A stretch of DNA of 64,000 nt from a virus (taxonomy: Duplodnaviria > Caudoviricetes), in the IMG/VR virus record IMGVR_UViG_3300010965_000001, positions 32,001 to 96,000 of that record, one strand, 5' to 3'. Made by a program: the position numbers and the translations under genes. Of the stretch, positions 9,226 to 27,513 are shown in pieces. The first letter of the stretch is position 1, and the number at the start of each line of letters is the position of its first letter. The notes under the pieces are model-generated. The model ran no database searches, was not told the DNA's origin, and saw only the letters and a program-made list of their open reading frames with translations.

Positions 9226-10506
9226 TTATTCCTCTATGATTAATCCACTTGATAGTTCTGTGTGTTGTGTTATTAAATGTTTATCTGAAATTTTTACCTT
9301 ACGTTCTATTTCTATTTTGATGTTGTCGTATTCGTATTCACCTATCTCATACGTTTCTACTACACCTGCCAAACTTCCAACCAATTCAAACAACGATTTC
9401 CAATTACAGTTGGTGGCGTCGATGGTCACTAATGCGTTGTATTCAAAATATGGACCGCTGAAGAAGATATTGAAATAGTTTGTTGTATTGTAAAATCTAC
9501 GTGATGCGTTCCACCCCTCCATTGATATGTCAAGTAACTGATTTGGTATTGTATCTTCCATTAACTGCGTTGAGTTGATAGCACCATCGTGGAATTGTGA
9601 ATCCAACCACACTTTAGTAAAGTATGGTTCAAGGTTCTGAATCAATGACCAATCCATCTTATCACAATTCAATATTCTAAGTGATACATCATACTTAGTC
9701 AATGGTGTATTGTGACTAAATGTTCCCCATTTACGAATGAACTTACGCATTTCGAATCCGTCAGCCTGTTCCTGTAACTTAACTCTCTCCTGTGCCTGTG
9801 TATTATTAGTATCGAACCAATCAGTTCCTCTTGAACTAACACATGTGAAGTGGTACACGTTGGCTTTGAATGTCTGTTTAATCTTAATGCCACTATGCAT
9901 GAACTTCTGTAAGATGTCACTATCTTCTCTTGACCTGCGGAAGATGGAGTCATGCCCTCCAACTGACTGCCATGTCTTCTTATGATAGGTGAAGGGTGCG
10001 AAGAAGTATTCTTCGGTTCTATCACTCTTTACAGTAGTTGCAAATTCCATATACCCATCCCAATCAAACTTGTCTGGTGTGATACCGAAGTCCCGTGTAA
10101 AGGTTATGGGTGAGGGTGGATGTAATGGTGGTTCCGTTCTCGTGGCACTCAATATACAATTCTCTTCAAGGTCTTCTAACACATTCAAGTCATAGTCCTT
10201 GCTTACAATCATGTCAGACTGTAAGAAACTAACGATGTCATATTTTGCAAGGTCTGTAAGTATATTCACATTCAACTGATAACCTACACATTGATTCGGA
10301 AACTTATGCGTGACAATCTTTAAATCAAAGAACTCATGCTTGACACTCTTTAAGTATTGATATGTGCCGTCATTGTCTCTGTCAATGAACACGATTATCT
10401 CATGGTGCTTATAATGGAGATTCTCTTGTAATGACTTCAACAACAACTTCGTATAAGGTAATGTGTTAGCACCTGTATTAGTTATAAAACTGATATGATT
10501 ATCCAT
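9226..10506 (-). CDS. glycosyltransferase family 2 with C-terminal extension
   Basis: GT-A fold: IIVFIDRDNDGT, FLQSDM, VGGHD ... EDSD. Confidence 0.85.
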   Translation of the reverse strand: MDNHISFITNTGANTLPYTKLLLKSLQENLHYKHHEIIVFIDRDNDGTYQYLKSVKHEFFDLKIVTHKFPNQCVGYQLNVNILTDLAKYDIVSFLQSDMIVSKDYDLNVLEDLEENCILSATRTEPPLHPPSPITFTRDFGITPDKFDWDGYMEFATTVKSDRTEEYFFAPFTYHKKTWQSVGGHDSIFRRSREDSDILQKFMHSGIKIKQTFKANVYHFTCVSSRGTDWFDTNNTQAQERVKLQEQADGFEMRKFIRKWGTFSHNTPLTKYDVSLRILNCDKMDWSLIQNLEPYFTKVWLDSQFHDGAINSTQLMEDTIPNQLLDISMEGWNASRRFYNTTNYFNIFFSGPYFEYNALVTIDATNCNWKSLFELVGSLAGVVETYEIGEYEYDNIKIEIERKVKISDKHLITQHTELSSGLIIEE

Positions 10507-11479
10507 TCAACGCCTCATTAATTTTCTTTAAGAATTCTTCTTCTGCGAACTTAGTGTAATTGTATTTTGCTTCTTCACAACACATCTTGAAGAACTCGGG
10601 ATTACGTTGTAACGTCCACGCCAAATCCTTTGCCTTCTGAACATCATCGACATCCACAGAGAGATTTGGGTGACAGATACGTTGTGTGTCTACCTTCTCA
10701 TTACCTATACAGGGGATACCGAAGTATGCACAGTTGAGACTGAACGTACCTGCCGCAACCGTGGGCATCATGTGGACTGCATACTTGAAGGATGATAGGG
10801 TCTTCATCCAATCCAACCATTCAAGTCGTGGTAAATGTGTAAGTCCTTCTATGTCAAATTCCTCTTGTCTCGCCGCATGAGACGAAGGAACATAGATACG
10901 ATTCACAAACTCCTGTGCTACGATGTAACTCTGAAAGCCACCATACCACCTACAGAAGTTACCACCAATGATTGTTTTGTCTTCTGTGACAGGAACTATG
11001 TCCTTCACTAAGTCTTCAATCATAAGGGTCGGCATGACGTAAGTCTTCTTATCAAACAGACCTGAATAGAAATTCCTATCAGTCTCATTGTGAACGAAGA
11101 TTCCATCGGAACTTACGATTGCGTTATTGTAATGGAACTGATTGATTATCTCATACTCATTGAAGAACCACGATGGACCTTCTTGTACGAAGAAGACCTT
11201 CTTGTTATGTTGTTTTAACTCTCCAACAAAGTCTTCTTGAAATAATGGAAGATACTTGTTAGGAACGTCCACCATCTTAGAACCAACTGCATTCAATGAC
11301 ACATCACCTTTGGGGAAGATGATGAATACAACATCAAAATCCTTGACACCATTGAAGTGTGTAATTGGATAGTGAACTGCATTGAGTGCCGCCATCCATG
11401 CAAACTCTGTTCTCATGTTAGTGTGATTCCTATAGACAGGACCACTAAATCCCATCTCTGTTAAGAATGCTATTTTCAT
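10499..11479 (-). CDS. putative GT-B glycosyltransferase
   Basis: AAGTFSLNCAYFGIPCIG resembles the GT-B nucleotide-sugar-binding segment; cluster context. Confidence 0.6.
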   Translation of the reverse strand: MKIAFLTEMGFSGPVYRNHTNMRTEFAWMAALNAVHYPITHFNGVKDFDVVFIIFPKGDVSLNAVGSKMVDVPNKYLPLFQEDFVGELKQHNKKVFFVQEGPSWFFNEYEIINQFHYNNAIVSSDGIFVHNETDRNFYSGLFDKKTYVMPTLMIEDLVKDIVPVTEDKTIIGGNFCRWYGGFQSYIVAQEFVNRIYVPSSHAARQEEFDIEGLTHLPRLEWLDWMKTLSSFKYAVHMMPTVAAGTFSLNCAYFGIPCIGNEKVDTQRICHPNLSVDVDDVQKAKDLAWTLQRNPEFFKMCCEEAKYNYTKFAEEEFLKKINEALNG

Positions 11480-12306
11480 TTATCCCTCAACTGATTGTAC
11501 ATTATTTTTAGTCCTTCACCTAATCCTATTAATGGAAGTGTTGGTAGTATGCTCGGGTGTGCCTCTCCGTAATATGACAACTCCACTCCGCCTCTGTCAA
11601 TCTTAATAGGACATCGATAATCACTCAACTGATTAATCACACCACAAATATCAGTCAATGTTATTTTATCCTTATAGACTGCATTCATTTCCTTTGATAG
11701 AAAGAATGGGTCGGAATGCATATAGTAACTTACGACAGTCATTAAATCATCAATGTAGAAGAAGTCCATGATTCTGTCCATATCAACAGTTAATGTGTCG
11801 TGGTTGATGTATCGTTGAATGTTTGTTTTGATGAACCGTGCAGTATCTTCATCGTGGGCAAACACATTGAACAATCTAATATTATAGAAATCATCAGTGT
11901 CTTCTATGATTCGTGCTATGAGATTTTTACTCATACCATATGGGTCAATTGGAAACGATGTAACAACTTTGTTACTAACATCTATGTTACGCCGCCGGTC
12001 CAACTCCGCCCCTGTTCCAAAATTGATAAACCGTTTGTAATATCGTCTATTGGTATAGAGATTGTTAAACATAGTAAGGTTATCTGCCAATACTTGATTA
12101 GTGTCTACCTTCGTACGTTTACCACCTGTTATAGCAGTGTGAAGAACCACATCAAATTTACCACTAATCTCAAAGAATTTATCGACATCAAATCCATTAG
12201 TCCAATCCAATTGGGAATGTGTCGGTGCGACCATTTCATGCTCACCGAAATATTCTTTAAGATGCCGTGCTATAAATCCATTACCGCCTGTTATGAGTAT
12301 TTTCAT
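11476..12306 (-). CDS. NAD-dependent epimerase/dehydratase
   Basis: MKILITGGNGFIA, VLHTA, YGMSK (YxxxK), IRLFNVF. Confidence 0.9.
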   Translation of the reverse strand: MKILITGGNGFIARHLKEYFGEHEMVAPTHSQLDWTNGFDVDKFFEISGKFDVVLHTAITGGKRTKVDTNQVLADNLTMFNNLYTNRRYYKRFINFGTGAELDRRRNIDVSNKVVTSFPIDPYGMSKNLIARIIEDTDDFYNIRLFNVFAHDEDTARFIKTNIQRYINHDTLTVDMDRIMDFFYIDDLMTVVSYYMHSDPFFLSKEMNAVYKDKITLTDICGVINQLSDYRCPIKIDRGGVELSYYGEAHPSILPTLPLIGLGEGLKIMYNQLRDK

Positions 12307-12307
12307 A

Positions 12308-13060
12308 TTATCTCTTTCTAAAGACTGCCAAGTAATTGATTTCATTGGGGTCTAATATCAAATCAACTAATTCAAATGCTTCACTGACTTTCTTATTCAT
12401 ATCGTCATTTAAGAAACTTGAATTAAACTTTCCAGTAAAATGTGTCTGTATTAATTCCTCTCCAACCAATGAGTTGTCATATCTGTACTTACCACGGGAT
12501 TTGAATGGATTTTGAATATCTTCCATGAAATAATATCCACCACTCTTCACTAAATCGATGGACTGATATAACGTAACCATCATGTGATTCGGCCAGTGGC
12601 TTCCATCTTCTACTATGAAATCTAAGTCATGTGGTACACATTCTTTTATGCCCACCCAATCTGAGAATGAACCTTGGTCTGCGTAAATGAAATTCACACC
12701 CATTTGATTTAAGAACTCTACATCACCCATCTTATCATCAAGTGTGTTATTCCAAAAGTTGTCTACGGAATATAAATCTAAATCTGAGAAGAATCCTGTC
12801 CACATCTTGCAACTTGCATAGGGAAATCTGTTATCACATATACCAATCTCCATCATCTTAACAGGTGCATCCTTGTATTGATTCATATAACGTGCATACG
12901 TAGTGGTGTATTCCAAACAGGTATGTGTAGGATATTTCACTCCCCAAGAAGTGAGTGCCGCGGGAAATGTCCCCTTGTCGGATTCGTGTGCATTAGCCAA
13001 GTATGTCAAATCTCTCACACCAGCAAGAACGTTGGATTTAGTCTTTTGAAAAAATTTCAT
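12308..13060 (-). CDS. SAM-dependent O-methyltransferase-like protein
   Basis: MMEIGI, DQG, FIVEDGSH, LVKSGGYYFMEDI. Confidence 0.75.
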   Translation of the reverse strand: MKFFQKTKSNVLAGVRDLTYLANAHESDKGTFPAALTSWGVKYPTHTCLEYTTTYARYMNQYKDAPVKMMEIGICDNRFPYASCKMWTGFFSDLDLYSVDNFWNNTLDDKMGDVEFLNQMGVNFIYADQGSFSDWVGIKECVPHDLDFIVEDGSHWPNHMMVTLYQSIDLVKSGGYYFMEDIQNPFKSRGKYRYDNSLVGEELIQTHFTGKFNSSFLNDDMNKKVSEAFELVDLILDPNEINYLAVFRKR

Positions 13061-13061
13061 G

Positions 13062-14012
13062 TTATTTCCCTTTTAAATATTTGTTAATTAGTTTTTTCAT
13101 TCCAAGATGTGTACTCTCATACTCATCGTTTAATGTAATTGTTTCTATACCAGTTACGTGTGTAATGTATTCTTTTATAACAGGTAGTTTCTTACTGATT
13201 CCACCAGTCAAAAATATGTGTTCGAATATATCTGTATCAATTCTTCGAATGTATTGTGTAACGTATCCTTTTACAACTGATGCAATCATATTATCTACAG
13301 TAAAGTTGTCTTCGTGTATATTCTTAATGAACCCGCCACCGTTATACTCAACAGCCTGTTCAAATACATTCAAGTCAATTTCCAATGTAGAAGTTATAAG
13401 GTCGTTCACTGTCAACTTACTACACCTTTCAAAGAAATCTACACCCATCGATTGAAAGAATGAACTGAACATATTCAATGCTCTTCCGCTTGGAATGTAA
13501 CTTGTGATATTGTCAGTTGATATTACTTGTGAACCCGTTCCCATGTTAATTAACAAGTCCGTCTCCTCTAAGTCAACTGATTCTATAACACAATTGGTAT
13601 CACCCAATACACTATAGAACTTCACACCGTTGATATAACCAAGAACTTCCAACCCATCTACAATTGAATCTTTTGAATGATGTTTATGTATGTGATATGT
13701 CTCCTGCCCCCTAAAGAGTTCAGAGATTAAGCAACCTTTATAATTTGGATTTTGATACAGTGCCTTCCATGAATAATAAATATCATTCTCTGAGTAGGAA
13801 CCGCCTAAGATTGAACATATCACAACATTTTTTATGCGTGTATATTGTGCCAATACATGTAATAATGACCCAATCACATATCGTTTGGCAACAGAGTATT
13901 CCATGTGCAATGGAGATTGAAAACTCTTATAATTTGTTAAACTATCTGTATCGGAATCATACACTATACACTTAATGTATGATGCACCGTAATCAATTAG
14001 CAAGTATTGCAT
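13062..14012 (-). CDS. FGGY-family carbohydrate kinase (sedoheptulokinase/xylulokinase-like)
   Basis: IDYGASYIK phosphate-1 motif, LGDTNC, INMGTGSQ, FLTGGI. Confidence 0.7.
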   Translation of the reverse strand: MQYLLIDYGASYIKCIVYDSDTDSLTNYKSFQSPLHMEYSVAKRYVIGSLLHVLAQYTRIKNVVICSILGGSYSENDIYYSWKALYQNPNYKGCLISELFRGQETYHIHKHHSKDSIVDGLEVLGYINGVKFYSVLGDTNCVIESVDLEETDLLINMGTGSQVISTDNITSYIPSGRALNMFSSFFQSMGVDFFERCSKLTVNDLITSTLEIDLNVFEQAVEYNGGGFIKNIHEDNFTVDNMIASVVKGYVTQYIRRIDTDIFEHIFLTGGISKKLPVIKEYITHVTGIETITLNDEYESTHLGMKKLINKYLKGK

Positions 14013-15015
14013 TGAGTCTCTCCACTAAGATGTCATCGAGTTTGGTTGGGAAAAAGTTCGTTACTCCTTCGTAACAGTTTACTAATTGTATTACATCACC
14101 AGCAACCTTCTTGTCACTTTTCAAATTGGACACAATCCCTACTGTGCTTAACTGTTTTATTTTACACAATGATGTAAACTTTAAACATGCTTCATTGATT
14201 ACTTCGTTGTTATCAAATAACTTATTGACAAGGAGGATTCCAAGTAATACAGCCTCACCATGTGGTATCTTATACTTTGTCATTGATTCAATCACGTGCC
14301 CAAACGAATGACCGTAATTCAGGGACTTTCTCAAATCTTCTTCGAATTCATCCTTCTCAATTACCAATCGTTTGATTTCAAGTGAATGTCTAATCACATC
14401 TTCAATTCCCCAATTACTGATGTTATTCAAGTAATAATTACCACCGATGGTAAACAACTTAACAATCTCACCATAACCTGACACCATATCTTCTGCTGTC
14501 AAAGTTTTAAGAAACTCTATATCGACTGTAACTTTACTTGGTGCGGAGAACAATGCCAATTGATTCTTATGATTGTCGAAGTTCAATCCAGACTTACCAC
14601 CAATACAACTGTCACACATCGACAATAGAGTGGTAGGATAGAACTCCCAATTAATTCCACGCTTGAACATTTTGGCTACGAATGCACCAATGTCTTGTGT
14701 TATGCCACCACCAATTACTATAAGTCTATTACTCTTAGTGAAACCCCACTCGGACAATTGTCCACACACCATTAGACATGTGTCCATTGACTTATTCTTC
14801 TCTAATGCTTTAATCTCAACAATCTTATCACATGATACATTGTAAAGATTCCCAACAGTTTGGTCTACTAATACAACACAATCGTCACCAAATGTTAAGT
14901 CCGCTCTACCAATCACAACATCGTAATTCTTTGGAAATGACTTAACAGTGAACTGTTTTTCAAGTTTTTGATTTATACGAAATATCGTGTCTTCAATCTT
15001 AAATAAATTGTGCAT
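13993..15015 (-). CDS. 3-dehydroquinate-synthase-like sugar-phosphate cyclase
   Basis: GGGITQDIG, PTTLLSMCDSCIGGK, GEIVK, LNYGHSFGH, HGEAV. Confidence 0.88.
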   Translation of the reverse strand: MHNLFKIEDTIFRINQKLEKQFTVKSFPKNYDVVIGRADLTFGDDCVVLVDQTVGNLYNVSCDKIVEIKALEKNKSMDTCLMVCGQLSEWGFTKSNRLIVIGGGITQDIGAFVAKMFKRGINWEFYPTTLLSMCDSCIGGKSGLNFDNHKNQLALFSAPSKVTVDIEFLKTLTAEDMVSGYGEIVKLFTIGGNYYLNNISNWGIEDVIRHSLEIKRLVIEKDEFEEDLRKSLNYGHSFGHVIESMTKYKIPHGEAVLLGILLVNKLFDNNEVINEACLKFTSLCKIKQLSTVGIVSNLKSDKKVAGDVIQLVNCYEGVTNFFPTKLDDILVERLNAILAN

Positions 15016-15018
15016 GTC

Positions 15019-16752
15019 TTACTCCTTTGAAATGGTCATATCAGTTAATGTTCCAGGAATGATTTTACCATTTGCATCAATTCCTCTGTGAGTTACTTTT
15101 GGTTCGTGCTTTTCTGATGGGTTCACGAACACTTCGATTATACATGGTTTGTAGGATGTCATACTCTGCGACAATACACCGTCTACGTCGGCATTACTTT
15201 TAATACTGTAATAATCAATCCCAAACGCCTTTGCAATTTTTTCAAAACTTGGGAGTGAGACACCATTATCCTTGCCGCTTGCAAATTCAGCCCCACCGAA
15301 GAACGCACCCTGTGTAAGTTTAATGGACACATATCCATCGTTATTGACAATGATGATTTTGATTGGAAGGTTGTTATGTTTGATAGTTTGCAATTCCTGT
15401 AAGTTCATCATTATACTTCCATCACCTTCGATACATACTACTCTCATGTTGGATGCTTTACACGCGCCGATTGCTGCGGAGATACCGTATCCCATACTCG
15501 CACACCCCACATTGGTGTACAGTCGTTGACCTTTGTTTATGTTATATGTTTGTTGTGTCACTACATGTGCTGACCCATTACTTGTTACAATGGGAAGTTT
15601 ACCAAAATACTTTGGTGCTCTACTTATGAAATAATAGAAACTTGCAAATTGTTTTGGATGAATGTGTTGTGGATAACAATAAACCTGTTCCTTACGTTTA
15701 TCCTTGACATATTGTTGCCACTCACCAATTTGCAATGTTTCATTATCCATAGTAATATATGATAAGAACTCTTTCAAATCTGATGGGATTTTCAAATCTA
15801 TATGAAATTTATGTTTCATAATTTCAAATTCATCAATATCAACAATTATCTTCTTAGCGTTTGGTGCGAAGTCCTTTATATTATATCCAGTCATTTTGAA
15901 GTTTAACCGTGACCCTAAGATGATTAACAAATCACACTGTTGAACTATTTCGTTTGAAGTTAGTTGTCCATGAATTCCAATACGTCCTGCATAATATTCA
16001 TACGTATTGTCAATACAATCCACCGCAGAGTGTGGTCCAGTTACTGCGGGGATGCCTGTCTTCACTAACAAGTCGTTAAGTAAAGTGTAACTGTTTGACA
16101 GTCTCACTCCACTACCACACACTATTAACGGTTTCTTTGCATTGAGAAGTAATTTCTTAAATTTAACAATTTCACTTGGAAATGGTTTCATCACTCTAAT
16201 TACTTCCGTGAATCTATCTAACATCTCTTCATCTACATCTGCTCCTTGAATATCCAATGGAACGTCTATCCATACTGGACCCATTCTATCATGTAGTGCG
16301 ATTTGATACGCCTTCTCAAGTTCGTACAATATTCTACTCTTGTCTTTTATTGTCACACAATACTTTGTCATTGGAGCCGCCACCTTCACAATATTGAACT
16401 CTTGGTCACCGATTTGACGGCAACCAGTTCCTTCTGACAGTTGATTAGTGGACACCTGTCCAGAAATGACCATCGATGGGATACTATCTAACCACATCCC
16501 CAATAGACCTGTTAATGCGTTAGTGCCTCCAGGACCAGTTGTGATTACGTTGAGTGCCATCTTACCACTCTGACGGTAATACCCTTCAGATGCCATCAAT
16601 GCAGTTTGTTCGTGGTGAACACATGTCGTGTCCATCCCCTTTGCAAGTCGTAACGCGTCTATGAGATGAATACATCCACCACCTGAAACTGTGAATGCAT
16701 GGTCGATTTTCTTCTCTAAGAAAAACTTCATTATTAAGTCTGCTACTCTCAT
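15019..16752 (-). CDS. thiamine-diphosphate-dependent enzyme (acetolactate-synthase-like, YerE-like)
   Basis: HHEQTA, TTGPGGTNA, GDGS...NN TPP-binding motif. Confidence 0.92.
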   Translation of the reverse strand: MRVADLIMKFFLEKKIDHAFTVSGGGCIHLIDALRLAKGMDTTCVHHEQTALMASEGYYRQSGKMALNVITTGPGGTNALTGLLGMWLDSIPSMVISGQVSTNQLSEGTGCRQIGDQEFNIVKVAAPMTKYCVTIKDKSRILYELEKAYQIALHDRMGPVWIDVPLDIQGADVDEEMLDRFTEVIRVMKPFPSEIVKFKKLLLNAKKPLIVCGSGVRLSNSYTLLNDLLVKTGIPAVTGPHSAVDCIDNTYEYYAGRIGIHGQLTSNEIVQQCDLLIILGSRLNFKMTGYNIKDFAPNAKKIIVDIDEFEIMKHKFHIDLKIPSDLKEFLSYITMDNETLQIGEWQQYVKDKRKEQVYCYPQHIHPKQFASFYYFISRAPKYFGKLPIVTSNGSAHVVTQQTYNINKGQRLYTNVGCASMGYGISAAIGACKASNMRVVCIEGDGSIMMNLQELQTIKHNNLPIKIIIVNNDGYVSIKLTQGAFFGGAEFASGKDNGVSLPSFEKIAKAFGIDYYSIKSNADVDGVLSQSMTSYKPCIIEVFVNPSEKHEPKVTHRGIDANGKIIPGTLTDMTISKE

Positions 16753-17792
16753 TCTATATCCTGTTTGGTTAGTGGTGAATCTGCCGATTTATCTTTATTA
16801 AGTACAAATCCTTCTAAAAAATCTCTTGATGTTAACTGACCGATTTCCGCTTGATATGGTATTGCACTATACAAGTCTATCAACTTCACCGACTCTCCTT
16901 TTACCATATCAGCGCGTAAATAGAATCCTCTATATAGATTCTCCAAATATTCAGATTCCTTAACATCAATAATTCTACGTGCCTGTGAAGAATTACCACA
17001 CATTGTTTGTGCGTATTTGAATGCTTTGAACCATTCATCAATTTGTTCAGGTTGTGAGCAGTAACTACTTACCATCTTCTGCTCACACTCACCCGCTTTG
17101 TATCGTATATCTACATGACGTTCCCATGTTCTCGCACCCTTTGCATATGAGATATTCATGGACGTTTGCCAATCATTCTTCTCATGTGTTGAAAATCCTA
17201 TTACGTGATTGGGATACCGATTCTTTAAGTAATCTATTTGATTCAGTTCTAACTCACTATCCTCACTCGGATACTTGGACACACAATGGTTGATTGCCAA
17301 AGGTATGTTTCGGTTTTCAAAGAATGCTACCGCGTCATCAATCTGTTTCTCACTTGCTCCACCTGTAGAGAATATGACAGGTTTCTCTGTTGCCGCGATT
17401 GCTTTTAACAATATCCAATCATTTATGTCTGAACTTGCAATTTTGATAATTGGAAGGTCTAAGTCTACACACAATTGAACTGACCGTTCATCAAAGGGTG
17501 TAGCCATAGGGATACAACCACACTGCCTAATATAGTCAACCAATTCTTCAATATCCCTGTCAAACAATTTAGTCTTAACAGTCTTTTGAATGTATCTGTC
17601 TGAATCTTTAGTAAAGTCAGAATGAACGAATGTTTCCACATCTCTAAATTGTAATTTGATTGCCGCCTTTACATTGTTATATCGAACTACTTGTGCAAAT
17701 TCTTTGATTATCCGTTTACCACGCTCCAAAGAACCCCAATGATTGTTTGCCATTTCAAGTATAAACAGATTTTCGAATATTTCATGTTCCAT
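16749..17792 (-). CDS. N-acetylneuraminate-synthase (NeuB/SpsE) family PEP-dependent synthase
   Basis: ILEMANNH, IKLQ, ATPFD, IKIASSD, STGG, HCVSKYP, GFSTH, ERH; C-terminal SAF/AFP-like domain. Confidence 0.9.
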   Translation of the reverse strand: MEHEIFENLFILEMANNHWGSLERGKRIIKEFAQVVRYNNVKAAIKLQFRDVETFVHSDFTKDSDRYIQKTVKTKLFDRDIEELVDYIRQCGCIPMATPFDERSVQLCVDLDLPIIKIASSDINDWILLKAIAATEKPVIFSTGGASEKQIDDAVAFFENRNIPLAINHCVSKYPSEDSELELNQIDYLKNRYPNHVIGFSTHEKNDWQTSMNISYAKGARTWERHVDIRYKAGECEQKMVSSYCSQPEQIDEWFKAFKYAQTMCGNSSQARRIIDVKESEYLENLYRGFYLRADMVKGESVKLIDLYSAIPYQAEIGQLTSRDFLEGFVLNKDKSADSPLTKQDIE

Positions 17793-17793
17793 A

Positions 17794-18102
17794 TTATTTC
17801 CAATCCCGCGTATTCATATTTTTATCATCGATGAATAAATCAAAATATGGTTTGTCAAATTTGAGTTCGTGATACTTGACTCCCCAATTACTTAATTGTT
17901 TCTTTGTTAGGTCAGACCAGTCAATTCCAGTCTTCTGTCCTCTTGCCGTCCAATATACAATGTGATGTCCTTTGTCATACAACTTATTAGCCTTTACTAT
18001 ATTCTCATTTATTGGACTACTAATTGTATAATCAGGTGCGTTTGGACTGTGACAAATTGTTTCATCAATATCAATGTATATTGTTTTTAATGTGCTGAGC
18101 AT
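17794..18102 (-). CDS. small HAD-superfamily phosphatase (capsule-cluster type)
   Basis: DIDETIC (DxD), YWTARG, KPYFDLFIDDK. Confidence 0.85.
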   Translation of the reverse strand: MLSTLKTIYIDIDETICHSPNAPDYTISSPINENIVKANKLYDKGHHIVYWTARGQKTGIDWSDLTKKQLSNWGVKYHELKFDKPYFDLFIDDKNMNTRDWK

Positions 18103-18731
18103 GAATAACCTCCATCGATGATGAAGTTTTGTCCATTGATGAAGTCGTTATTATCACATAAGAAGAATACCATATCCGCCACTTCACTTGGTTGCCCCAA
18201 TCTACCAACGGGAATTTTGCCGATGAGTTCTTCAAGTTGTTCGTCAGTGTTATTCTTATACGTCATATCCGTGTTTATAAATCCAGGTGATACCGTGTTG
18301 CATAGAATATTGTGTTTACCATACTCTACAGCGATAGATTTTGTAAGTGCATGAAGTGCATTCTTACTCGCACTATATGCAAATCGATTTTGTTTTGCAA
18401 AGTCAATCCATACACTACCCATATTCACTATTCTACCATATTGGTTTAGCATCATATGATTTAAACATTGTTTAATTATTTGTGTGGGTGCATAGAAATT
18501 GACATCCATAGTTCTCTGTAAATCAAATCCTGTTGTCGCCATATCATTAAGTATGTTTACACCTGCGTTATTAACAATCACATCGAAATTCGTGTTTGTT
18601 AACTGTGGGATAACTGACAAGTTAAGTTCGTCACGGTTAGGAGCGTACACCTCATAACCGTTGGACGAAAACTTCTCTACAATCGCTTCACCGATACCTC
18701 TTGAACCACCTGTAACTAATACTTTTTTCAT
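18087..18731 (-). CDS. short-chain dehydrogenase/reductase
   Basis: TGGSRGIG, NNAG, YSASK, SPGFINT, IDGG. Confidence 0.92.
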   Translation of the reverse strand: MKKVLVTGGSRGIGEAIVEKFSSNGYEVYAPNRDELNLSVIPQLTNTNFDVIVNNAGVNILNDMATTGFDLQRTMDVNFYAPTQIIKQCLNHMMLNQYGRIVNMGSVWIDFAKQNRFAYSASKNALHALTKSIAVEYGKHNILCNTVSPGFINTDMTYKNNTDEQLEELIGKIPVGRLGQPSEVADMVFFLCDNNDFINGQNFIIDGGYSCSAH

Positions 18732-19531
18732 TAATCCACCTTAATAGATTGGTTGATTCGTTCCTGTATCATGTGAATTCGTTTCAAATCTGCATCTGCA
18801 AATCCCATATAATGTTCACGTTTAACCATGAGCCATTCATACTCAAACATCTGTCCTTTTGCCAGTGCGGCTGGTAGATTCTTGAGTGCTACAGCTGGGT
18901 CATACATGACATAACGTGTTTCGAACTTGTCGAGTAATCGTTTTGAATGGAGACGGGACAAGAACGAATATGATTCCGTTGATACAGCGCCTCCAACACA
19001 CGCCTTTAATCCCTTTTCTTTTGCAAGAGTAAATACCTTCTCAGCCATATCAAATACAAATGGACTCTCAACAAAATTTCTATCTTCACCCAACGAAGAA
19101 ACAAGGTCAACTCTTCCCAACGTGATTCCATACAGTGAAAATATGTCATCAATTTCCATTATGTCTGCGATATTTTTAACAGCAGTCATAGTTTCAATAT
19201 TCACCAATAATTGAAGTGATGATACTGAATCTGGTGAAATATATTTCTTAACGGCACCAATGAACTTCTGAACCCCAAATGGAGATTCAACCATCGGTGC
19301 TACCAACCCCTTCACACCGATAATTGCGGAGTCTTGAATATCTCTGATTGCTTCAGGACCACCAATCTTCAACGTTATCTTCGTCTTTGCTTCGTTACAA
19401 ATCTGTTTAAGACGAACCACTTCGTTGAAGGTTGCACCTTCATCTTCGAAACTTGTCTTGATACCAACCATTCCATGATTTTCAACCAAGTCAGTCAGTA
19501 ACTCTACACATCTAAATTCTCTTTTGTTCAT
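18731..19531 (-). CDS. HpcH/HpaI aldolase / citrate-lyase family protein
   Basis: KIGG.EA, APMVES, NIET, GRVDL.SLG. Confidence 0.82.
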   Translation of the reverse strand: MNKREFRCVELLTDLVENHGMVGIKTSFEDEGATFNEVVRLKQICNEAKTKITLKIGGPEAIRDIQDSAIIGVKGLVAPMVESPFGVQKFIGAVKKYISPDSVSSLQLLVNIETMTAVKNIADIMEIDDIFSLYGITLGRVDLVSSLGEDRNFVESPFVFDMAEKVFTLAKEKGLKACVGGAVSTESYSFLSRLHSKRLLDKFETRYVMYDPAVALKNLPAALAKGQMFEYEWLMVKREHYMGFADADLKRIHMIQERINQSIKVD

Positions 19532-20088
19532 AACTTTCTACTCCTTTTTAATTTAAAAATTTCAGGGTGTTTGTGGACGATTAATGCTACATCACCAGGA
19601 TGTACTGAATGTGGTGAATATGGTTCACATGTTTTTGCAAGTTCAGGAAATTGTGAACTAATTCCCAATATTAGATAAAAGTCCAACACTGAACAGACCA
19701 CCTCTTTTTTATTGAGTGGATTAACTTTTGCTCTCATATCATATCCAAGAAGTTCTCCAGCTCTACGATAAATATACCACGGAAGTTGAAGGAACCCATA
19801 CTGATGCTCCGCGTACAAATCATACAAATATGACACCAACGGAAGTAGTTGGTCTTGTGACATTCCAATCACTTCATACTCCTCATATTCCGATGTTAAG
19901 TCTTCTGTGATATGAGTTTCGGGTCCGATTGAAATTAAAATTTGCGCTTCATAAATTGACGGAATCCCAACGACATCACCTGCACCGATTGCACAATGGG
20001 TATAAGGGCATCCAGTAATCCACCGAATCGCCCATGATAAAAATCCACCCTTAGTGGAGTTGACAACTACTATATTTCCTACTTTCAT
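19528..20088 (-). CDS. permuted papain-like (YiiX/YebB, C92-like) amidase/peptidase
   Basis: GNIVVV ... YTHCAI (His) and C-terminal VVCS (Cys), permuted NlpC/P60 order; start after AGGAG. Confidence 0.7.
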   Translation of the reverse strand: MKVGNIVVVNSTKGGFLSWAIRWITGCPYTHCAIGAGDVVGIPSIYEAQILISIGPETHITEDLTSEYEEYEVIGMSQDQLLPLVSYLYDLYAEHQYGFLQLPWYIYRRAGELLGYDMRAKVNPLNKKEVVCSVLDFYLILGISSQFPELAKTCEPYSPHSVHPGDVALIVHKHPEIFKLKRSRKL

Positions 20089-20098
20089 AATTTCTCCT

Positions 20099-21052
20099 TT
20101 ACCACACAAATGTGTCTTTGTTATATTCTGTGATGTTCCACAACTCTTCGTCAAACTTAACTTTCGGACTCCATCCAAGTGCTCTCAACTTAGAATCATC
20201 GAGTGCATATCGAACGTCTTGCCCTGCCCTAACAACACCAAAGTTAACGTACGGTTCCCATTGGTCAGTTCCCTTCACAAGTTTTATAATCTTCGTAACT
20301 GTCTCCAGATTCGATTGTTCAAATCCTCCACAAATGTTATATATTTCATTCACAACACCCTTTTCTACAATCAACAAAACTGCATCTGCAGTATCTTGTG
20401 CATGTAACCAATTACGAACAGGTTTACCCATATTGTGAAGTGGAATCGGTTTATCCAACATCAAGTATTTACAAGCCTTTGGAATCAACTTTTCCACATA
20501 CTGCCCACACCCATAATTGTTTGTGGGACGAACTATCACGTACGGAATGCCATACGTTCTCGCATACGCGGTAATTAACATATCACCAGCGGCTTTGGTT
20601 GCAGAGTATGGATTGGATGGGTGGAGAATATCCAATTCCGTGTGTGCTCCAACTGCAATATCACCATACACTTCATCGGTACTGAAATGTAACAGAGTGG
20701 GAACCTTACCACTTTCTTGACGATAATTACGAATCAATTCTAACAGATGATGAACTCCACCAATATTTGAGTGGACAAAATCATCACTGTTGGTGATTGA
20801 ATTTCCTACATGTGTTTCAGCGGCACAGTTAATAACATAGTCACATTCATATAAGAATTTAAGGTCATTAATGTCCTCTTTCATAAATGAGAAATTTGGA
20901 TATTTACTCATAAACGATTTAATTAATTTTATATCGGCTGCGTAGGTACACTTGTCAACACCCATCACATACCAACCTTCATTGAGTAATGTCTCTGTTA
21001 CATATGAACCTATGAATCCAAGACATCCTGTTACGTATACTATTTTTTTCAT
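20099..21052 (-). CDS. rfbB: dTDP-glucose 4,6-dehydratase
   Basis: TGCLGFIGS, AAETHV, STDEVYG, PSNPYSATKA, RAGQDVRY. Confidence 0.9.
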   Translation of the reverse strand: MKKIVYVTGCLGFIGSYVTETLLNEGWYVMGVDKCTYAADIKLIKSFMSKYPNFSFMKEDINDLKFLYECDYVINCAAETHVGNSITNSDDFVHSNIGGVHHLLELIRNYRQESGKVPTLLHFSTDEVYGDIAVGAHTELDILHPSNPYSATKAAGDMLITAYARTYGIPYVIVRPTNNYGCGQYVEKLIPKACKYLMLDKPIPLHNMGKPVRNWLHAQDTADAVLLIVEKGVVNEIYNICGGFEQSNLETVTKIIKLVKGTDQWEPYVNFGVVRAGQDVRYALDDSKLRALGWSPKVKFDEELWNITEYNKDTFVW

Positions 21053-25202: not shown

Positions 25203-26573
25203 TTAGTATGCCTTTACAAAATAATCTCGCATGAATCGTTCCACAACAACTTCAATGTAATCCAACTGTTCATCCGTAATTCCAGGATATACCCCGAGGA
25301 AGAATGAATCCAACGTTGACTTAGTTGCCACTGGAAATTCTCTTCTTGGATTTACATACTTGCTAGCTTGGTCAACGTACGCTGGATGAAGTAGTGCATT
25401 CCCCGTAAAGTACGAACGTGTCTGAACTTTCTTATGTTCGAACCACGACATCAGTTGGTCTTTTGTAAATGGTGATTCATCCTTAATCGTAAGAAGGAAT
25501 CCAAACCACGACACATCCGCCCCAAACTCCGCCAGTGGCATGTGGAGATACTTCCGATATGGATAGAATATTTCACACAACCTCGCGTGGTTCTTCTTTC
25601 TCTTCGCGTGCATTTCATCCAACTTGTCAATTTGTTCCAATCCAATTGCAGTCTGCATTTCAATTGGTTTTAAGTTATATCCGATTTCATCAAACACATA
25701 ACGATGGTCAAATGTTATATCGTCATGTCCCTTGAACCAACACTTAAACCGATTGCCACATGCAGTCCCATCGATGACATCACCAGGTTTGTTTGTATTA
25801 CAATGACATGCCCTACCCCAATCACGGAGACTTGACACGACTATCCGTTCCTTCATCGTGTTCACTCCAACGAACCCACCTTCACCCATTGTCATGTGAT
25901 GTGCTGGGAAGAATGAACAACTTGAAAGATGTCCAAATGACCCCAACACCTGCCCCTTGTACGTAGAACCAAGTGCATCACATGCATCTTCTAAGAATAT
26001 CAAATTGTATTCTTTGACAATTCTCATAACTCTATCCATGTCAGGAGGATTTCCTAAAACGTGTGCGAATATGATTCCTTTGATTTCTTTGGCAGTATCT
26101 AACTTCAAAACTGCTTCCACTTGGTCTAAGTCTAAATTCAAACTTGGAAGTGTGACATCTACGAAGACAGGTTCGAACCCATTCTGAATGATTGGATTGA
26201 GTGTTGTAGGGAAGCATAATACAGGTGTGATGAACTTCGAACCAACTGGAAGGTTATACAACCGTTTCGACTTCATTGCGGCGAGCATTAACAAATTTGC
26301 AGATGAACCTGAATTGACTACTACACCATCCTTCTTTCCAAGTTTCGGTGCGAACTTCGTTTCAAACTTACGTGCGGTCTCTCCCAAAATCAACCACTCC
26401 GATAGGAGAGATGTGATTGCGGCAGTGTATTCCTTCTCATTGAAGAACGGACCAGAATAATGAATCCAATCTTTACCAGCAACCCACTTCTTTGCCTTCT
26501 TTGTTTTGATATACGAACTTACAACTTTTAAAATGATTTTATGTTTCAACTTCTGAATTGTGTCATTAAACAT
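25203..26573 (-). CDS. rfbH: NDP-4-keto-6-deoxyhexose 3-dehydratase (RfbH/DdhC, E1 type)
   Basis: NSGSSANL, EDACDALG, SFFPAHH (His in place of the PLP lysine), RDWGRACHC...C Fe-S cysteines; start 26573 overlaps fcl stop. Confidence 0.88.
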   Translation of the reverse strand: MFNDTIQKLKHKIILKVVSSYIKTKKAKKWVAGKDWIHYSGPFFNEKEYTAAITSLLSEWLILGETARKFETKFAPKLGKKDGVVVNSGSSANLLMLAAMKSKRLYNLPVGSKFITPVLCFPTTLNPIIQNGFEPVFVDVTLPSLNLDLDQVEAVLKLDTAKEIKGIIFAHVLGNPPDMDRVMRIVKEYNLIFLEDACDALGSTYKGQVLGSFGHLSSCSFFPAHHMTMGEGGFVGVNTMKERIVVSSLRDWGRACHCNTNKPGDVIDGTACGNRFKCWFKGHDDITFDHRYVFDEIGYNLKPIEMQTAIGLEQIDKLDEMHAKRKKNHARLCEIFYPYRKYLHMPLAEFGADVSWFGFLLTIKDESPFTKDQLMSWFEHKKVQTRSYFTGNALLHPAYVDQASKYVNPRREFPVATKSTLDSFFLGVYPGITDEQLDYIEVVVERFMRDYFVKAY

Positions 26574-27513
26574 TTTTATCTCCACGATATAGGATATTAT
26601 AAACTTTTTGGATTCCGTTAACAAAGTGCGTGAATTCAAAATTTGGAATAAGATTTACCATTTTATTAATACTTACATCTTTACGGTATTGACCGTCGGG
26701 ATATGTACTGTCATACCAAATATCCCAATCTTCATGCCCCAATGCCAATAGTGTCATTCGTGCTAATTCATCTATACTGAAATTTTGACCGACAGGGGCG
26801 ACATTGAAACTTTCAGTAATATCGTACTCAACCATATCTCCCAACACTCTCGCCAAGTCTCCAGCATACATAAATTGACGTAACGGCTTTCCAGTCCCCA
26901 TTAATTTAATAGTCTTATCTCCATACTCCTCAGCGCGCTGAATCTTTGATAGAAGTGCCGTCACAAAATGTGGTTTGTTAGCATTACGTCCGTAAATTAC
27001 GTCATACTCACTATAGAGATTGGAAGGTATTACGTAATTGTAGTTAGTTTTGTACTGTTGATTGTATGCGTCTATTTGAACTGCCATACATCGTTTCGCA
27101 TATCCATAACTGAAATTGGTTTCTGCTGGTGGTCCGAGATGTAAATCCGTTTCCACCATTGGATACTTGTCCATTACATCAGGATAGATGCATGTACTCA
27201 GTATACCAGTGAATCGTTCAACATTATATTTATGTGCGTACTTTACCATCAAAGTATTCATTAAAATATTTTGGTCGAAGAAGTCGGCTGGGTGCATCAT
27301 ATTATCCATGATACCACCAACTTTCCCCGCGGCGTGTATAATTCGTTGTGGACGATTTGCAGAAATCATATATTCGACATGGACAGGGTTTGTCAAGTCA
27401 AATTCTTCACCGAAATTGTCTTTGGTGACAAAAACGGCAGATGGGAACTGCTCGCGGAGATGTTTTCCCACCATGCCGTTCCCACCTGTTATTAGTAATT
27501 CGTTATCAAACAT
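26566..27513 (-). CDS. fcl: GDP-L-fucose-synthase-like epimerase/reductase
   Basis: TGGNGMVG, AGKVGGI, STCIYP, YGYAKR, PSNLY, GTGKPLRQF, PDGQYRK. Confidence 0.88.
   Translation of the reverse strand: MFDNELLITGGNGMVGKHLREQFPSAVFVTKDNFGEEFDLTNPVHVEYMISANRPQRIIHAAGKVGGIMDNMMHPADFFDQNILMNTLMVKYAHKYNVERFTGILSTCIYPDVMDKYPMVETDLHLGPPAETNFSYGYAKRCMAVQIDAYNQQYKTNYNYVIPSNLYSEYDVIYGRNANKPHFVTALLSKIQRAEEYGDKTIKLMGTGKPLRQFMYAGDLARVLGDMVEYDITESFNVAPVGQNFSIDELARMTLLALGHEDWDIWYDSTYPDGQYRKDVSINKMVNLIPNFEFTHFVNGIQKVYNILYRGDKNV

What the first reader, a model, noticed from the sequence alone, without database searches (positions are those of the whole stretch)
12308..19531. Phage-encoded kinase-cyclase-TPP-NeuB-HAD-SDR-aldolase module: candidate pathway for a carbocyclic or higher-carbon sugar
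Seen: seven tightly coupled genes (HpcH aldolase, SDR, HAD phosphatase, NeuB-type synthase, TPP enzyme, DHQ-synthase-like cyclase, FGGY kinase), followed by a methyltransferase, inside a glycosyltransferase island. Established: NeuB enzymes condense PEP with aldoses to give ulosonates; DHQS-family enzymes cyclise ketose or ulosonate phosphates into carbocycles; TPP enzymes and HpcH aldolases form C-C bonds. Inference: the module makes an unusual carbocyclic or 8-12-carbon sugar, loosely analogous to caryose, bradyrhizose or caryophyllose, for transfer by neighbouring GTs onto virion proteins or DNA. I do not know of such a pathway being characterised in a phage. This is my best candidate for an undescribed system.
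Basis: partly seen in the sequence, partly recalled or inferred. Interest (0 to 1): 0.87.

Follow-up and report, generated by a model that had tools for sequence, protein, structure and literature searches.

The report
Phage pathway for a long-branched deoxysugar
A large T4-like phage carries a tightly packed gene set that most likely builds a rare surface sugar with a long carbon side chain, of the caryophyllose kind; this pathway type is known from bacteria, not described in phages as far as I could find, and two of its enzymes have never been studied.

Summary
All eight genes are real, at the stated coordinates, and packed with gaps of -38 to +3 bases.

The best reading is not a cyclitol, sialic-acid or shikimate pathway. 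It is a YerE-type acyl-branched deoxysugar pathway (Steitz et al. 2022).
- The thiamine enzyme's best solved relatives are 8rph and 5ahk, ahead of true acetolactate synthases. I identify both as YerE-like enzymes from memory.
- The same island holds an NDP-glucose 4,6-dehydratase and a genuine RfbH 3-dehydrase, which make the usual 4-keto-3,6-dideoxyhexose acceptor.
- An HpcH-like aldolase and a NeuB-like synthase can make the keto-acid donor. A co-conserved reductase sits downstream.

The cassette recurs in about 30 viral contigs and in many bacterial glycan loci, but not in 50,697 deposited phage records.

The dehydroquinate-synthase-like enzyme keeps every AroB catalytic residue yet forms its own clade. 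It always sits with enzymes that need an intact 2-keto acid. I therefore favour phosphate elimination that deoxygenates the side chain over ring formation, though a carbocycle is not excluded.

This scan has reached the same general reading for the cassette in several bacterial genomes. The phage setting is the new element.

The parts
25203..26639 (-). RfbH-type NDP-6-deoxy-4-hexulose 3-dehydrase (E1). With the dehydratase it makes the 4-keto-3,6-dideoxyhexose acceptor.
   Evidence: NCBIfam NF011936 RfbH scores 436.6 bits against a cut-off of 423; Pfam DegT_DnrJ_EryC1. Its blastp family (RfbH-size members plus about 15 ordinary DegT aminotransferases) co-occurs with the ThDP enzyme in 56 of 79 loci against 6 of 39 without it.
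20099..21052 (-). NDP-glucose 4,6-dehydratase (RmlB-like)
   Evidence: TIGR01181 scores 291.8 bits, below the 365 cut-off; Pfam GDP_Man_Dehyd and Epimerase. It is 58-72% identical and upstream of the cassette in most viral loci.
19528..20178 (-). 216-aa ORF with a TTG start and no family. It overlaps the dehydratase gene by 80 bases; role unknown.
18731..19531 (-). HpcH/HpaI-like class II pyruvate aldolase; candidate maker of a 4-hydroxy-2-oxo acid
   Evidence: Pfam PF03328, E 5e-12. Homologues lie next to the DHQS-like and ThDP genes in 8 other loci. The caryophyllose locus uses an aldolase of the same family, MMAR_2331 (PMC9306805).
18087..18731 (-). Short classical SDR (FabG-like), the near-constant partner of the DHQS-like enzyme; probable ketoreductase
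   Evidence: Pfam adh_short_C2, E 4.5e-43. An SDR of this family is in 104 of 118 loci, as a rule directly upstream of the DHQS-like gene.
17794..18102 (-). Minimal HAD-type phosphatase (102 aa)
   Evidence: Weak hits to HAD_PNKP, EcbF-BcbF and BT0820. Motifs DIDET, WTAR, K and DDK are present. It is 67-77% identical in 9 viral loci, upstream of NeuB (directly so in most).
16749..17792 (-). NeuB-family PEP-dependent aldose condensing enzyme. It is not NeuB, PseI or LegI; probable maker of a 3-deoxy-2-ulosonic acid.
   Evidence: Pfam NeuB, E 9e-40. PseI scores 120 bits (cut-off 340) and NeuB 110 bits (cut-off 400). The closest solved structure is 3g8r, E 1e-54, against 1e-19 for true NeuB. It is 54-68% identical across cassette loci.
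15019..16752 (-). YerE-like ThDP-dependent carboligase
   Evidence: Three TPP_enzyme domains; below all ALS cut-offs. Best PDB hits are 8rph (4e-103) and 5ahk (2e-77), ahead of E. coli ALS I 6lpi (1e-69). The GDG motif and catalytic Glu are present.
13993..15015 (-). AroB-derived DHQS-like enzyme; probable phosphate-eliminating oxidoreductase acting on a DAHP-like acid
   Evidence: Pfam DHQ_synthase and DHQS_C. aroB scores 211 bits (cut-off 305) and TIGR04425 269 bits (cut-off 400). Eleven ligand and catalytic positions are invariant across 118 homologues and 2 annotated AroB; the last three have minor exceptions (K197 position K87/H28/R5; a few alignment gaps). The family forms a separate clade.
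13062..14012 (-). Compact FGGY-fold sugar kinase whose gene overlaps the DHQS-like gene by 20 bases
   Evidence: It is present with NeuB-type or HMGL-type aldolases and in none of 21 loci whose only aldolase is HpcH-type.
12308..13060 (-). Probable class I SAM methyltransferase (Methyltransf_24-like)
   Evidence: Atlas features 0.95 with methyltransferase clusters. There is one homologue, 58% identical, in L085.
11476..12345 (-). Extended-SDR NDP-sugar reductase or epimerase; candidate YerF-type reductase of the acyl branch
   Evidence: Pfam Epimerase, E 3e-20. It is co-conserved downstream of the kinase in 40 loci.
9226..10506 (-). GT2 glycosyltransferase; candidate transferase for the branched sugar
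   Evidence: Pfam Glycos_transf_2. Homologues follow the reductase in 7 other viral loci.

Best explanation
The module is the phage version of a YerE-type acyl-branched deoxysugar pathway.

Acceptor (inferred from family membership). Host NDP-glucose is converted by the phage 4,6-dehydratase (20099-21052) and the RfbH 3-dehydrase (25203-26639) into an NDP-4-keto-3,6-dideoxyhexose.

Donor (inferred). A functionalised 2-keto-3-deoxy acid is made by the NeuB-like synthase (PEP + aldose) and/or the HpcH-like aldolase (pyruvate + aldehyde). It is then tailored by the FGGY-like kinase, the DHQS-like enzyme and the SDR.

Coupling (inferred by homology to enzymes characterised in vitro). The YerE-like ThDP enzyme decarboxylates the keto acid and adds the acyl anion to C-4 of the keto sugar. 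The downstream extended-SDR (11476-12345) reduces the acyl carbonyl, a methyltransferase may decorate the product, and a co-conserved GT2 transfers it.

My specific hypothesis for the uncharacterised trio is as follows.
1. The kinase puts a phosphate on the terminal carbon of the ulosonic acid, or of its precursor.
2. The DHQS-like enzyme carries out the first DHQS steps: NAD+ oxidation, beta-elimination of phosphate, and re-reduction.
3. The SDR reduces the resulting ketone.
This would give a terminal-methyl polyhydroxy keto acid such as 3,7-dideoxyheptulosonate. That acid is exactly the donor required for the 1,3,4,5-tetrahydroxyhexyl side chain of caryophyllose.

The predicted product is a roughly 12-carbon, caryophyllose-like 4-C-branched 3,6-dideoxyhexose. 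All island proteins are soluble, so the acceptor is probably cytoplasmic, for example virion proteins. That last point is speculative.
For: ThDP enzyme:
- Its two best solved relatives are 8rph (E 4e-103) and 5ahk (E 2e-77), ahead of E. coli ALS I (E 1e-69).
- It fails every NCBIfam ALS cut-off.
- The 5ahk = PpYerE and 8rph = JanthE assignments are from my memory of Hampel 2018 and Lanza 2024; PMC12247030 confirms that structures of both exist.

Acceptor genes:
- RfbH passes its curated cut-off (436.6 bits against 423).
- A 4,6-dehydratase sits 570 bases upstream of the module.
- The blastp family that holds RfbH (about 45 RfbH-size members, about 15 ordinary DegT aminotransferases) co-occurs with the ThDP enzyme in 56 of 79 loci, against 6 of 39 loci without it (Fisher p 1e-8, loci not independent).

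Published scheme:
- An aldolase makes a functionalised alpha-keto acid, a YerE-like enzyme adds it to CDP-4-keto-3,6-dideoxyglucose, and a YerF-like reductase follows. The caryophyllose locus uses an HpcH/citrate-lyase-family aldolase, MMAR_2331 (PMC9306805).
- Three non-homologous aldol-type enzymes (NeuB, HpcH, HMGL-like) alternate beside the same DHQS-like, SDR and ThDP genes, as expected if each supplies a 2-keto acid.

DHQS-like enzyme:
- Of fourteen positions I take to be AroB ligand or catalytic residues, eleven are invariant in all 118 homologues and in two annotated AroB. These include the residues I recall as the carboxylate binders (A. nidulans K250 and R264) and the phosphate binders. 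The K197 position is K in 87, H in 28 and R in 5, and the last three positions have one or two alignment gaps.
- The 1dqs alignment offset of +11 confirms the numbering for R130 to K197.
- The family forms its own clade, whose subclades follow the cluster type.
- It always accompanies either a ThDP enzyme or a CMP-transferase plus HpcH. Both need an uncyclised 2-keto-3-deoxy acid.

Kinase:
- It occurs only where the aldolase is of NeuB or HMGL type, and in none of 21 loci whose only aldolase is HpcH-type.
- The Atlas lists HpcH proteins of which a minority carry an FGGY_N domain.

Side chain:
- Caryophyllose carries a 1,3,4,5-tetrahydroxyhexyl branch (PMC5706390), which corresponds to DAHP without its phosphate and 7-oxygen.

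What the phage lacks:
- There is no CMP-transferase, so the route cannot produce a CMP-activated ulosonate.
- No island ORF is an integral membrane protein; a crude hydropathy scan found only one N-terminal hydrophobic stretch.
Against: - No enzyme here, and no close homologue of the NeuB-like, DHQS-like, kinase or SDR components, has been assayed.
- A fully conserved DHQS active site argues that the enzyme could run the whole DHQS reaction, including ring closure. From my knowledge of DHQS chemistry, that last step is largely spontaneous, so a linear product needs an explanation.
- Having both a kinase and a HAD phosphatase, and both NeuB and HpcH, in one module is not explained economically.
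- L005, the closest bacterial relative of the DHQS-like gene, has two NeuB genes and no ThDP enzyme within 10 kb.
- The phage has no sugar-1-phosphate nucleotidyltransferase and no E3-type reductase, so the acceptor branch depends on the host.
- The dehydratase looks like the dTDP type, whereas characterised YerE acceptors are CDP-linked.
- The YerF role of 11476-12345 rests on its family and position only.
- The loci were gathered through the DHQS-like protein and include near-duplicates, so the counts are biased.
Confidence: 0.68

Rival explanations
1. Carbocycle reading. NeuB or HpcH makes a DAHP-like ulosonate phosphate. The DHQS-like enzyme cyclises it to a dehydroquinate-like cyclohexanone, which the SDR reduces. 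The ring is then built into the glycan, either as the ketone acceptor of the ketone-accepting YerE-like enzyme or as a caryose- or bradyrhizose-like unit.
For: - Every residue I take to be an AroB ligand or catalytic residue is kept.
- DHQS structures are by far the closest solved relatives, at 3e-57 against 1e-29 for DOIS and EEVS.
- YerE-like enzymes accept cyclic ketones (PMC12247030).
- The SDR is a near-constant neighbour, as expected if a ketone is produced.
Against: - A cyclised product has no 2-keto acid left. Yet the family always sits with enzymes that need one: a ThDP decarboxylating ligase, or a CMP-transferase of the Kdo/NeuA kind.
- No activation enzyme for a cyclitol is present in the phage.
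- The association of the RfbH-containing family with the ThDP enzyme would be left unexplained.
Confidence: 0.15
2. The DHQS-like enzyme, SDR and kinase act before the aldol step on a neutral sugar phosphate. They make a terminal-deoxy aldose by a nucleotide-independent route, which NeuB then extends. The side chain would then be 7-8 carbons long and the sugar 13-14 carbons.
For: - In bacterial type-A loci the order is SDR, DHQS-like, kinase, NeuB, (HAD), ThDP enzyme.
- L005 has two NeuB genes around the trio.
- NeuB enzymes normally take hexose-size aldoses (established knowledge).
Against: - The residues I recall as carboxylate binders, equivalent to K250 and R264, are invariant. From memory, they are replaced in sugar-phosphate cyclases that act on neutral sugars.
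- HpcH-only loci have no kinase.
Confidence: 0.12
3. This is an ordinary nonulosonic-acid (sialic, pseudaminic or legionaminic) pathway, or a shikimate-type auxiliary metabolic module.
For: NeuB-family and AroB-family domains are present.
Against: - PseI, NeuB and aroB equivalog cut-offs are all missed by wide margins.
- The genome has no CMP-transferase.
- The window's ORFs show no dehydroquinase, EPSP synthase or chorismate synthase.
- Bacterial homologues sit in glycan loci.
Confidence: 0.03

Closest known systems
Caryophyllose section of the Mycobacterium marinum LOS locus (MMAR_2331 aldolase, MMAR_2332 ThDP enzyme), and the general YerE-type scheme for acyl-branched sugars (Steitz et al. 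2022, PMC9306805)
   Same: - An HpcH/citrate-lyase-family aldolase, a YerE-like ThDP carboligase, an NAD(P)H reductase, genes for a 4-keto-3,6-dideoxyhexose and a glycosyltransferase lie in one locus.
- The predicted product is a long polyhydroxyalkyl branch at C-4.
   Different: - This locus is phage-borne.
- It adds a NeuB-like PEP-dependent synthase, a DHQS-like enzyme, an FGGY-like kinase, a short SDR and a HAD phosphatase. The published scheme mentions none of these.
- The dehydratase looks like the dTDP type rather than the CDP type.
- The phage has no nucleotidyltransferase and no E3 reductase.
Yersiniose A pathway (YerE/YerF) of Yersinia pseudotuberculosis
   Same: A ThDP-dependent addition of an acyl anion to an NDP-4-keto-3,6-dideoxyhexose, followed by ketoreduction.
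   Different: YerE uses pyruvate and gives a two-carbon branch. Here dedicated enzymes build a longer donor.
3-dehydroquinate synthase AroB
   Same: The fold, the NAD+/metal site and every residue I take to bind substrate are conserved.
   Different: - It scores below the aroB cut-off (211 bits against 305).
- It forms a separate clade.
- It is found only in glycan loci beside an SDR, with no shikimate-pathway genes.
Kinase / 9-phosphate synthase / HAD phosphatase route to sialic acid and KDN (animal NANS/NANP; Bacteroides BT1713/BT1714). This comparison is from my own knowledge.
   Same: A sugar kinase, a NeuB-family synthase and a small HAD phosphatase occur together.
   Different: There is no CMP-transferase. 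The product is proposed to feed a ThDP enzyme rather than to be activated as a CMP sugar.
JanthE (PDB 8rph, as I identify it) and PpYerE (5ahk), the structurally solved YerE-like enzymes
   Same: They are the closest solved relatives of the window's ThDP enzyme over its full length.
   Different: Their physiological donors are short keto acids. The donor here is unknown.

Membership tests
YerE-type acyl-branched sugar pathway | A YerE-like ThDP carboligase rather than an acetolactate synthase | tested here: met
   The best PDB hits, 8rph and 5ahk, which I identify as YerE-like enzymes, rank ahead of ALS. All ALS equivalog cut-offs are missed. This is sequence-level evidence only; no phylogeny with YerE references could be built.
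YerE-type acyl-branched sugar pathway | Genes for the NDP-4-keto-3,6-dideoxyhexose acceptor: nucleotidyltransferase, 4,6-dehydratase, E1 3-dehydrase and E3 reductase | tested here: inconclusive
   The dehydratase and RfbH (E1, above its cut-off) are present. NTP_transferase and NAD_binding_1 family genes are absent from the whole phage record, so the host would have to supply those steps.
YerE-type acyl-branched sugar pathway | An adjacent aldolase that makes a functionalised alpha-keto acid donor | tested here: met
   An HpcH-like aldolase and a NeuB-like synthase are in the same operon. Aldolase types alternate across loci. Activity was not tested.
YerE-type acyl-branched sugar pathway | A YerF-type NAD(P)H reductase of the acyl carbonyl | tested here: inconclusive
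   An extended-SDR ORF (11476-12345) is co-conserved in 40 loci. No YerF reference sequence was available for comparison.
3-dehydroquinate synthase (AroB, TIGR01357) | Score above the equivalog cut-off and a shikimate-pathway context | tested here: not met
   It scores 211 bits against 305, forms a clade separate from two annotated AroB, and lies in a glycan context.
3-dehydroquinate synthase (AroB, TIGR01357) | Catalytic metal, phosphate and carboxylate ligands | tested here: met
   Eleven of fourteen positions are invariant in 118 homologues and 2 AroB; the K197 position is K87/H28/R5 and the last three positions have one or two alignment gaps. The numbering is anchored on 1dqs by the offset. 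Residue roles are from memory of Carpenter et al. 1998.
Non-DHQS sugar phosphate cyclases (EEVS, DDGS, DOIS) | Closer similarity to those enzymes than to DHQS | tested here: not met
   2d2x, 4p53 and 5tpr score 1e-25 to 1e-29, against 3e-57 for DHQS.
Nonulosonic acid synthases NeuB, PseI and LegI | Equivalog score, and a CMP-transferase partner | tested here: not met
   PseI scores 120 bits against 340 and NeuB 110 bits against 400. PF02348 is absent from the phage genome.
FGGY carbohydrate kinases | The FGGY fold with ASKHA phosphate and adenosine motifs | tested here: met
   The AF2 model has pLDDT 94.7, and Foldseek gives probability 1.0 with TM 0.70-0.75 by the query to FGGY kinases. DxG, GTG and GG motifs are present. 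No Pfam FGGY hit was found, and at 316 aa it is about 170 aa shorter than the canonical enzymes.

The most novel reading that the evidence does not exclude
The AroB-derived enzyme, its SDR partner and the compact FGGY kinase form an undescribed, nucleotide-independent machine. It would remodel ulosonic acids by phosphate elimination, giving either terminal deoxygenation or a ring. Large phages of several lineages would use it to decorate their virions, or the infected cell, with a 12-carbon or larger branched sugar that no phage is known to make.
Probability: 0.3. Interest if true: 0.8.

Novelty: new variant of a known kind. Interest (0 to 1): 0.6.

Why it matters
Long-branched sugars such as caryophyllose, erwiniose and gastriose are rare. 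They are immunologically important components of bacterial envelopes and are hard to detect chemically.

The cassette is present in a complete T4-like phage and in about 30 other viral contigs. Two of three large cassette-bearing records that I checked showed no T4-type capsid gene; all are incomplete. This suggests that phages move and use the chemistry, presumably to glycosylate virions or to alter host surfaces.

It also offers a compact, soluble and membrane-free enzyme set for working out what the widespread, unstudied DHQS-like/SDR/kinase add-on does. That add-on is an AroB offshoot recruited from primary metabolism into glycan tailoring. Its reaction, deoxygenation or carbocyclisation, would be new enzymology in either case.

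Tried and rejected
- **Near-identical DNA in deposited phages:** megablast of the module found no match.
- **Proteins in deposited phages:** tblastn of the DHQS-like, ThDP and NeuB proteins found only housekeeping aroB, ilvB or unrelated sialic-acid synthases, mostly in host-contaminated records.
- **Single-protein scan of viral contigs:** it found nothing. The alignment-based scan worked.
- **Literature:** searches joining DHQS, NeuB and thiamine, or sugar phosphate cyclase, sialic acid synthase and ALS, gave nothing relevant.
- **Bradyrhizose:** its genes are still undefined in the one paper held, which mentions only an 11-gene cluster with a dTDP-glucose dehydratase. That lead could not be tested.
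- **Aurantose:** the structure papers and Krug et al. 2024 are not held.
- **Steitz supplement:** it is not held.
- **'YerE' + 'phage' search:** it matched only noise such as 'Yerevan'.
- **Locating Spirochaeta aurantia:** I sampled 401 Spirochaetota genomes for the NeuB-like protein.
- **Kinase by sequence against PDB:** no match.
- **Family f19, upstream of NeuB in other viral loci:** I considered it a second HAD, but its sequence looks like an FkbM-type methyltransferase.
- **DNA glycosylation:** no ThyA/dCMP-hydroxymethylase family gene was found.

Full report
**What is there**

The window is bases 32001-96000 of a 210,562-bp IMG/VR virus record that CheckV rates 100% complete. The record encodes:
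- a T4-type Gp23 capsid protein;
- a family B DNA polymerase, 45% identical to that of Microcystis phage Mel-JY01;
- ribonucleotide reductase, a DnaB-like helicase, a DNA ligase and PhoH.

All genes in the region lie on the minus strand. Between 12308 and 19531 there are eight ORFs with junctions of -38 to +3 bases. In transcription order they are:
1. an HpcH/HpaI-like aldolase;
2. a short classical SDR;
3. a 102-aa HAD phosphatase with all four HAD motifs;
4. a NeuB-family synthase;
5. a three-domain ThDP enzyme;
6. a DHQS-like protein (genes 1-6);
7. a 316-aa protein with no Pfam hit;
8. a 250-aa protein with no Pfam hit.

The 316-aa protein is a compact FGGY-fold kinase. The Atlas points to that family. 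An AlphaFold model built on 37 homologues has pLDDT 94.7, and its Foldseek matches are all FGGY kinases at probability 1.0. The 250-aa protein looks like a Methyltransf_24-type methyltransferase by Atlas features.

**Surroundings**

The module sits in a glycan island of about 25 kb (8.7-33.8 kb). The island holds:
- GT2, GT11, a GT2-GT10 fusion and GT1/GT4-like transferases;
- methyltransferases;
- a GDP-fucose-synthase-like gene;
- an RmlB-like 4,6-dehydratase at 20099-21052;
- at 25203-26639, a protein that passes NCBI's curated cut-off for RfbH, the PMP-dependent 3-dehydrase of 3,6-dideoxyhexose synthesis (436.6 bits against 423).

No island ORF has the hydropathy of an integral membrane protein; a crude scan found only one N-terminal hydrophobic stretch. 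The phage record has no sugar-1-phosphate nucleotidyltransferase, no CMP-transferase, no E3-type reductase domain and no ThyA/dCMP-hydroxymethylase family gene.

**Relatives**

The DHQS-like protein has thousands of homologues. These include a family of about 340 aa that is 52-60% identical to it. Profile-guided scans recovered 80 bacterial loci (the limit kept, out of 579 confirmed matches) and 34 viral loci.

I called ORFs in all loci, clustered them by blastp and annotated the recurrent clusters. Of 118 loci:
- 104 have an SDR, usually directly upstream of the DHQS-like gene;
- 79 have the ThDP enzyme;
- 63 have the kinase;
- 62 have a member of the DegT family that includes RfbH (about 45 of RfbH size, about 15 ordinary aminotransferases);
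- 49 have the NeuB;
- 40 have the downstream epimerase-family reductase.

Most viral loci share one order: dehydratase, (HAD or FkbM-like methyltransferase), NeuB, ThDP enzyme, SDR, DHQS-like, kinase, reductase.

Bacterial loci fall into four types.
- **Type A** (Brachyspira, Elusimicrobia, Gastranaerophilales and others): nucleotidyltransferase, dehydratase, RfbH, reductase, SDR, DHQS-like, kinase, NeuB, ThDP enzyme.
- **Type C** (Lachnospiraceae, Selenomonadaceae): an HMGL-like aldolase takes the place of NeuB.
- **Type D**: an HpcH aldolase takes that place, and there is no kinase.
- **Type B** (Bacteroides, Draconibacterium, Pelagicoccus and others): there is no ThDP enzyme. Instead there are a CTP_transf_3 cytidylyltransferase, HpcH, SIS, GFO and 2-hydroxyacid-dehydrogenase genes, and an MptE-like protein.

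The window is the only locus with both NeuB and HpcH.

No deposited phage genome among 50,697 records has the cassette. I checked three large cassette-bearing viral records and one provirus fragment. Only one, rated 32% complete, has Gp23. The records rated 87% and 84% complete show neither Gp23 nor a match to the window's polymerase. The cassette therefore probably occurs in more than one phage lineage.

**What it most likely is**

The ThDP enzyme fails every acetolactate-synthase cut-off. Its two best solved relatives are 8rph (4e-103) and 5ahk (2e-77), ahead of E. coli ALS I (1e-69). I identify these from memory as the YerE-like enzymes JanthE and PpYerE; PMC12247030 confirms that structures of both exist.

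Steitz et al. (PMC9306805) showed how long-branched sugars such as erwiniose, caryophyllose and gastriose are made:
1. an aldolase builds a functionalised alpha-keto acid;
2. a YerE-like ThDP enzyme adds it, with decarboxylation, to CDP-4-keto-3,6-dideoxyglucose;
3. a YerF-like reductase reduces the acyl carbonyl.

The caryophyllose locus uses an HpcH/citrate-lyase-family aldolase, MMAR_2331. Every element of that scheme is present here: the RfbH and dehydratase for the acceptor, the aldolases, the ThDP enzyme, a co-conserved reductase and a co-conserved GT2. The RfbH-containing family also tracks the ThDP enzyme across loci, at 56 of 79 against 6 of 39 (loci not independent). The alternation of three unrelated aldol-type enzymes at the same place in the cassette is what one expects if the shared requirement is simply a 2-keto-3-deoxy acid.

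**The unstudied part**

The DHQS-like protein scores below the aroB cut-off (211 bits against 305) and below TIGR04425 (269 bits against 400). Its family branches apart from two annotated AroB, and its subclades follow the cluster type.

I checked fourteen alignment positions that I take, from memory, to be the ligand and catalytic residues of A. nidulans DHQS. Eleven are invariant in all 118 members and in both annotated AroB: R130, D146, K152, N162, E194, K250, R264, N268, H271, H275 and, apart from one gap, H287. The K197 position is K in 87, H in 28 and R in 5. The two lysines of the DKK motif (the K356 region) are present except for two gaps. The numbering is anchored by the +11 offset of the 1dqs alignment.

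Keeping the residues I recall as carboxylate binders points to a DAHP-like ulosonate phosphate as substrate.

Caryophyllose carries a 1,3,4,5-tetrahydroxyhexyl branch (PMC5706390). Worked backwards through the ThDP step, its donor is 3,7-dideoxyheptulosonate. That is DAHP without its phosphate and its 7-oxygen.

I therefore propose the following.
1. The kinase supplies the terminal phosphate where the aldolase takes unphosphorylated aldehydes. It accompanies NeuB-type or HMGL-type aldolases and is absent from all 21 loci whose only aldolase is HpcH-type.
2. The DHQS-like enzyme eliminates that phosphate by the DHQS redox mechanism.
3. The SDR reduces the resulting ketone, giving a terminal-methyl side chain.

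The main argument against ring closure comes from context. In every cluster type the family sits with an enzyme that needs an open 2-keto acid, either a ThDP ligase or a Kdo/NeuA-type CMP-transferase.

The main argument for ring closure is the untouched DHQS active site, together with the known tendency of the DHQS enol intermediate to cyclise on its own (my knowledge). This question is open, and I give the carbocycle 0.15.

**What remains unexplained**

- Why the window has both HpcH and NeuB.
- What the HAD phosphatase does beside a kinase.
- Why L005 has two NeuB genes and no ThDP enzyme.
- Which nucleotide carries the sugar.
- What the glycan is attached to.

**Relation to earlier notes of this scan**

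Several follow-up reports on bacterial genomes reached the same YerE-type reading. One of them gave me the Steitz reference. I re-tested the claim here with independent searches.

- the phage setting and its spread among viral contigs;
- the co-variation of the kinase with the aldolase type;
- the invariance of the full AroB ligand set;
- the CMP-transferase variant (type B);
- the retro-biosynthetic link between DAHP and the caryophyllose side chain.

**Verdict**

This is a real, conserved pathway module. It is a new variant of a known kind of pathway.

Noticed in passing
L069, L068, L051, L081, L084, L050, L061 (about 6-15 kb of each locus): A second conserved cluster is built around the same SDR/DHQS-like pair, but without a ThDP enzyme. 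Its order is D-2-hydroxyacid dehydrogenase, GFO/IDH/MocA oxidoreductase, SIS isomerase, SDR, DHQS-like, YhcH/DUF386, CTP_transf_3 cytidylyltransferase, PF04199 cyclase, HpcH aldolase, MptE-like protein. It occurs in Bacteroides, Draconibacterium, Pelagicoccus, Desulfobacterales and others, and looks like a route to an unknown CMP-activated ulosonic acid.
   Followed up: partly
L034, L036, L041-L047, L056, L077 (Lachnospiraceae, Selenomonadaceae, Anaerovibrio): A third variant has a 537-aa HMGL-like aldolase in place of NeuB, together with a glyoxalase-fold protein and an FkbM methyltransferase next to the ThDP enzyme, the DHQS-like enzyme and the kinase.
   Followed up: partly
window 29866-30720 (-): A 284-aa ORF with NUMOD1 and HTH motifs, homing-endonuclease-like, sits inside the glycan island. 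It overlaps its neighbour by 161 bases, so one of the two starts is probably miscalled.
   Followed up: no
window 22612-27513 (-): A GT2-GT10(fucosyltransferase C-terminal) fusion, a GT11 fucosyltransferase-like gene and a GDP-fucose-synthase-like gene (173.9 bits, below the 500 cut-off) lie together. The glycan probably also contains a fucose-type 6-deoxyhexose.
   Followed up: no
L006 versus L085: A 5.6-kb contig binned into a Bacteroidetes MAG carries a DHQS-like protein nearly identical to that of the viral contig L085 (tree branches 0.004-0.006), and the two loci show matching identities to the window proteins. It is either a phage contig mis-binned or a hint that the host is a Bacteroidota.
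   Followed up: no
Atlas clusters, structure row 9: A cluster of 570-aa Bacillota proteins all carry an HpcH_HpaI domain, and 11% also carry FGGY_N. This is a possible aldolase-kinase fusion, which would support consecutive steps.
   Followed up: no
window 32061-32804 (-): A 247-aa Pol-beta-type nucleotidyltransferase (NTP_transf_2) lies between two GT1/GT4-like genes. Its role is unknown.
   Followed up: no
window 12308-13060 (-): The Atlas holds this protein only from residue 59 on. The annotated 250-aa ORF may really start there, which would remove the 38-base overlap with the next gene.
   Followed up: no
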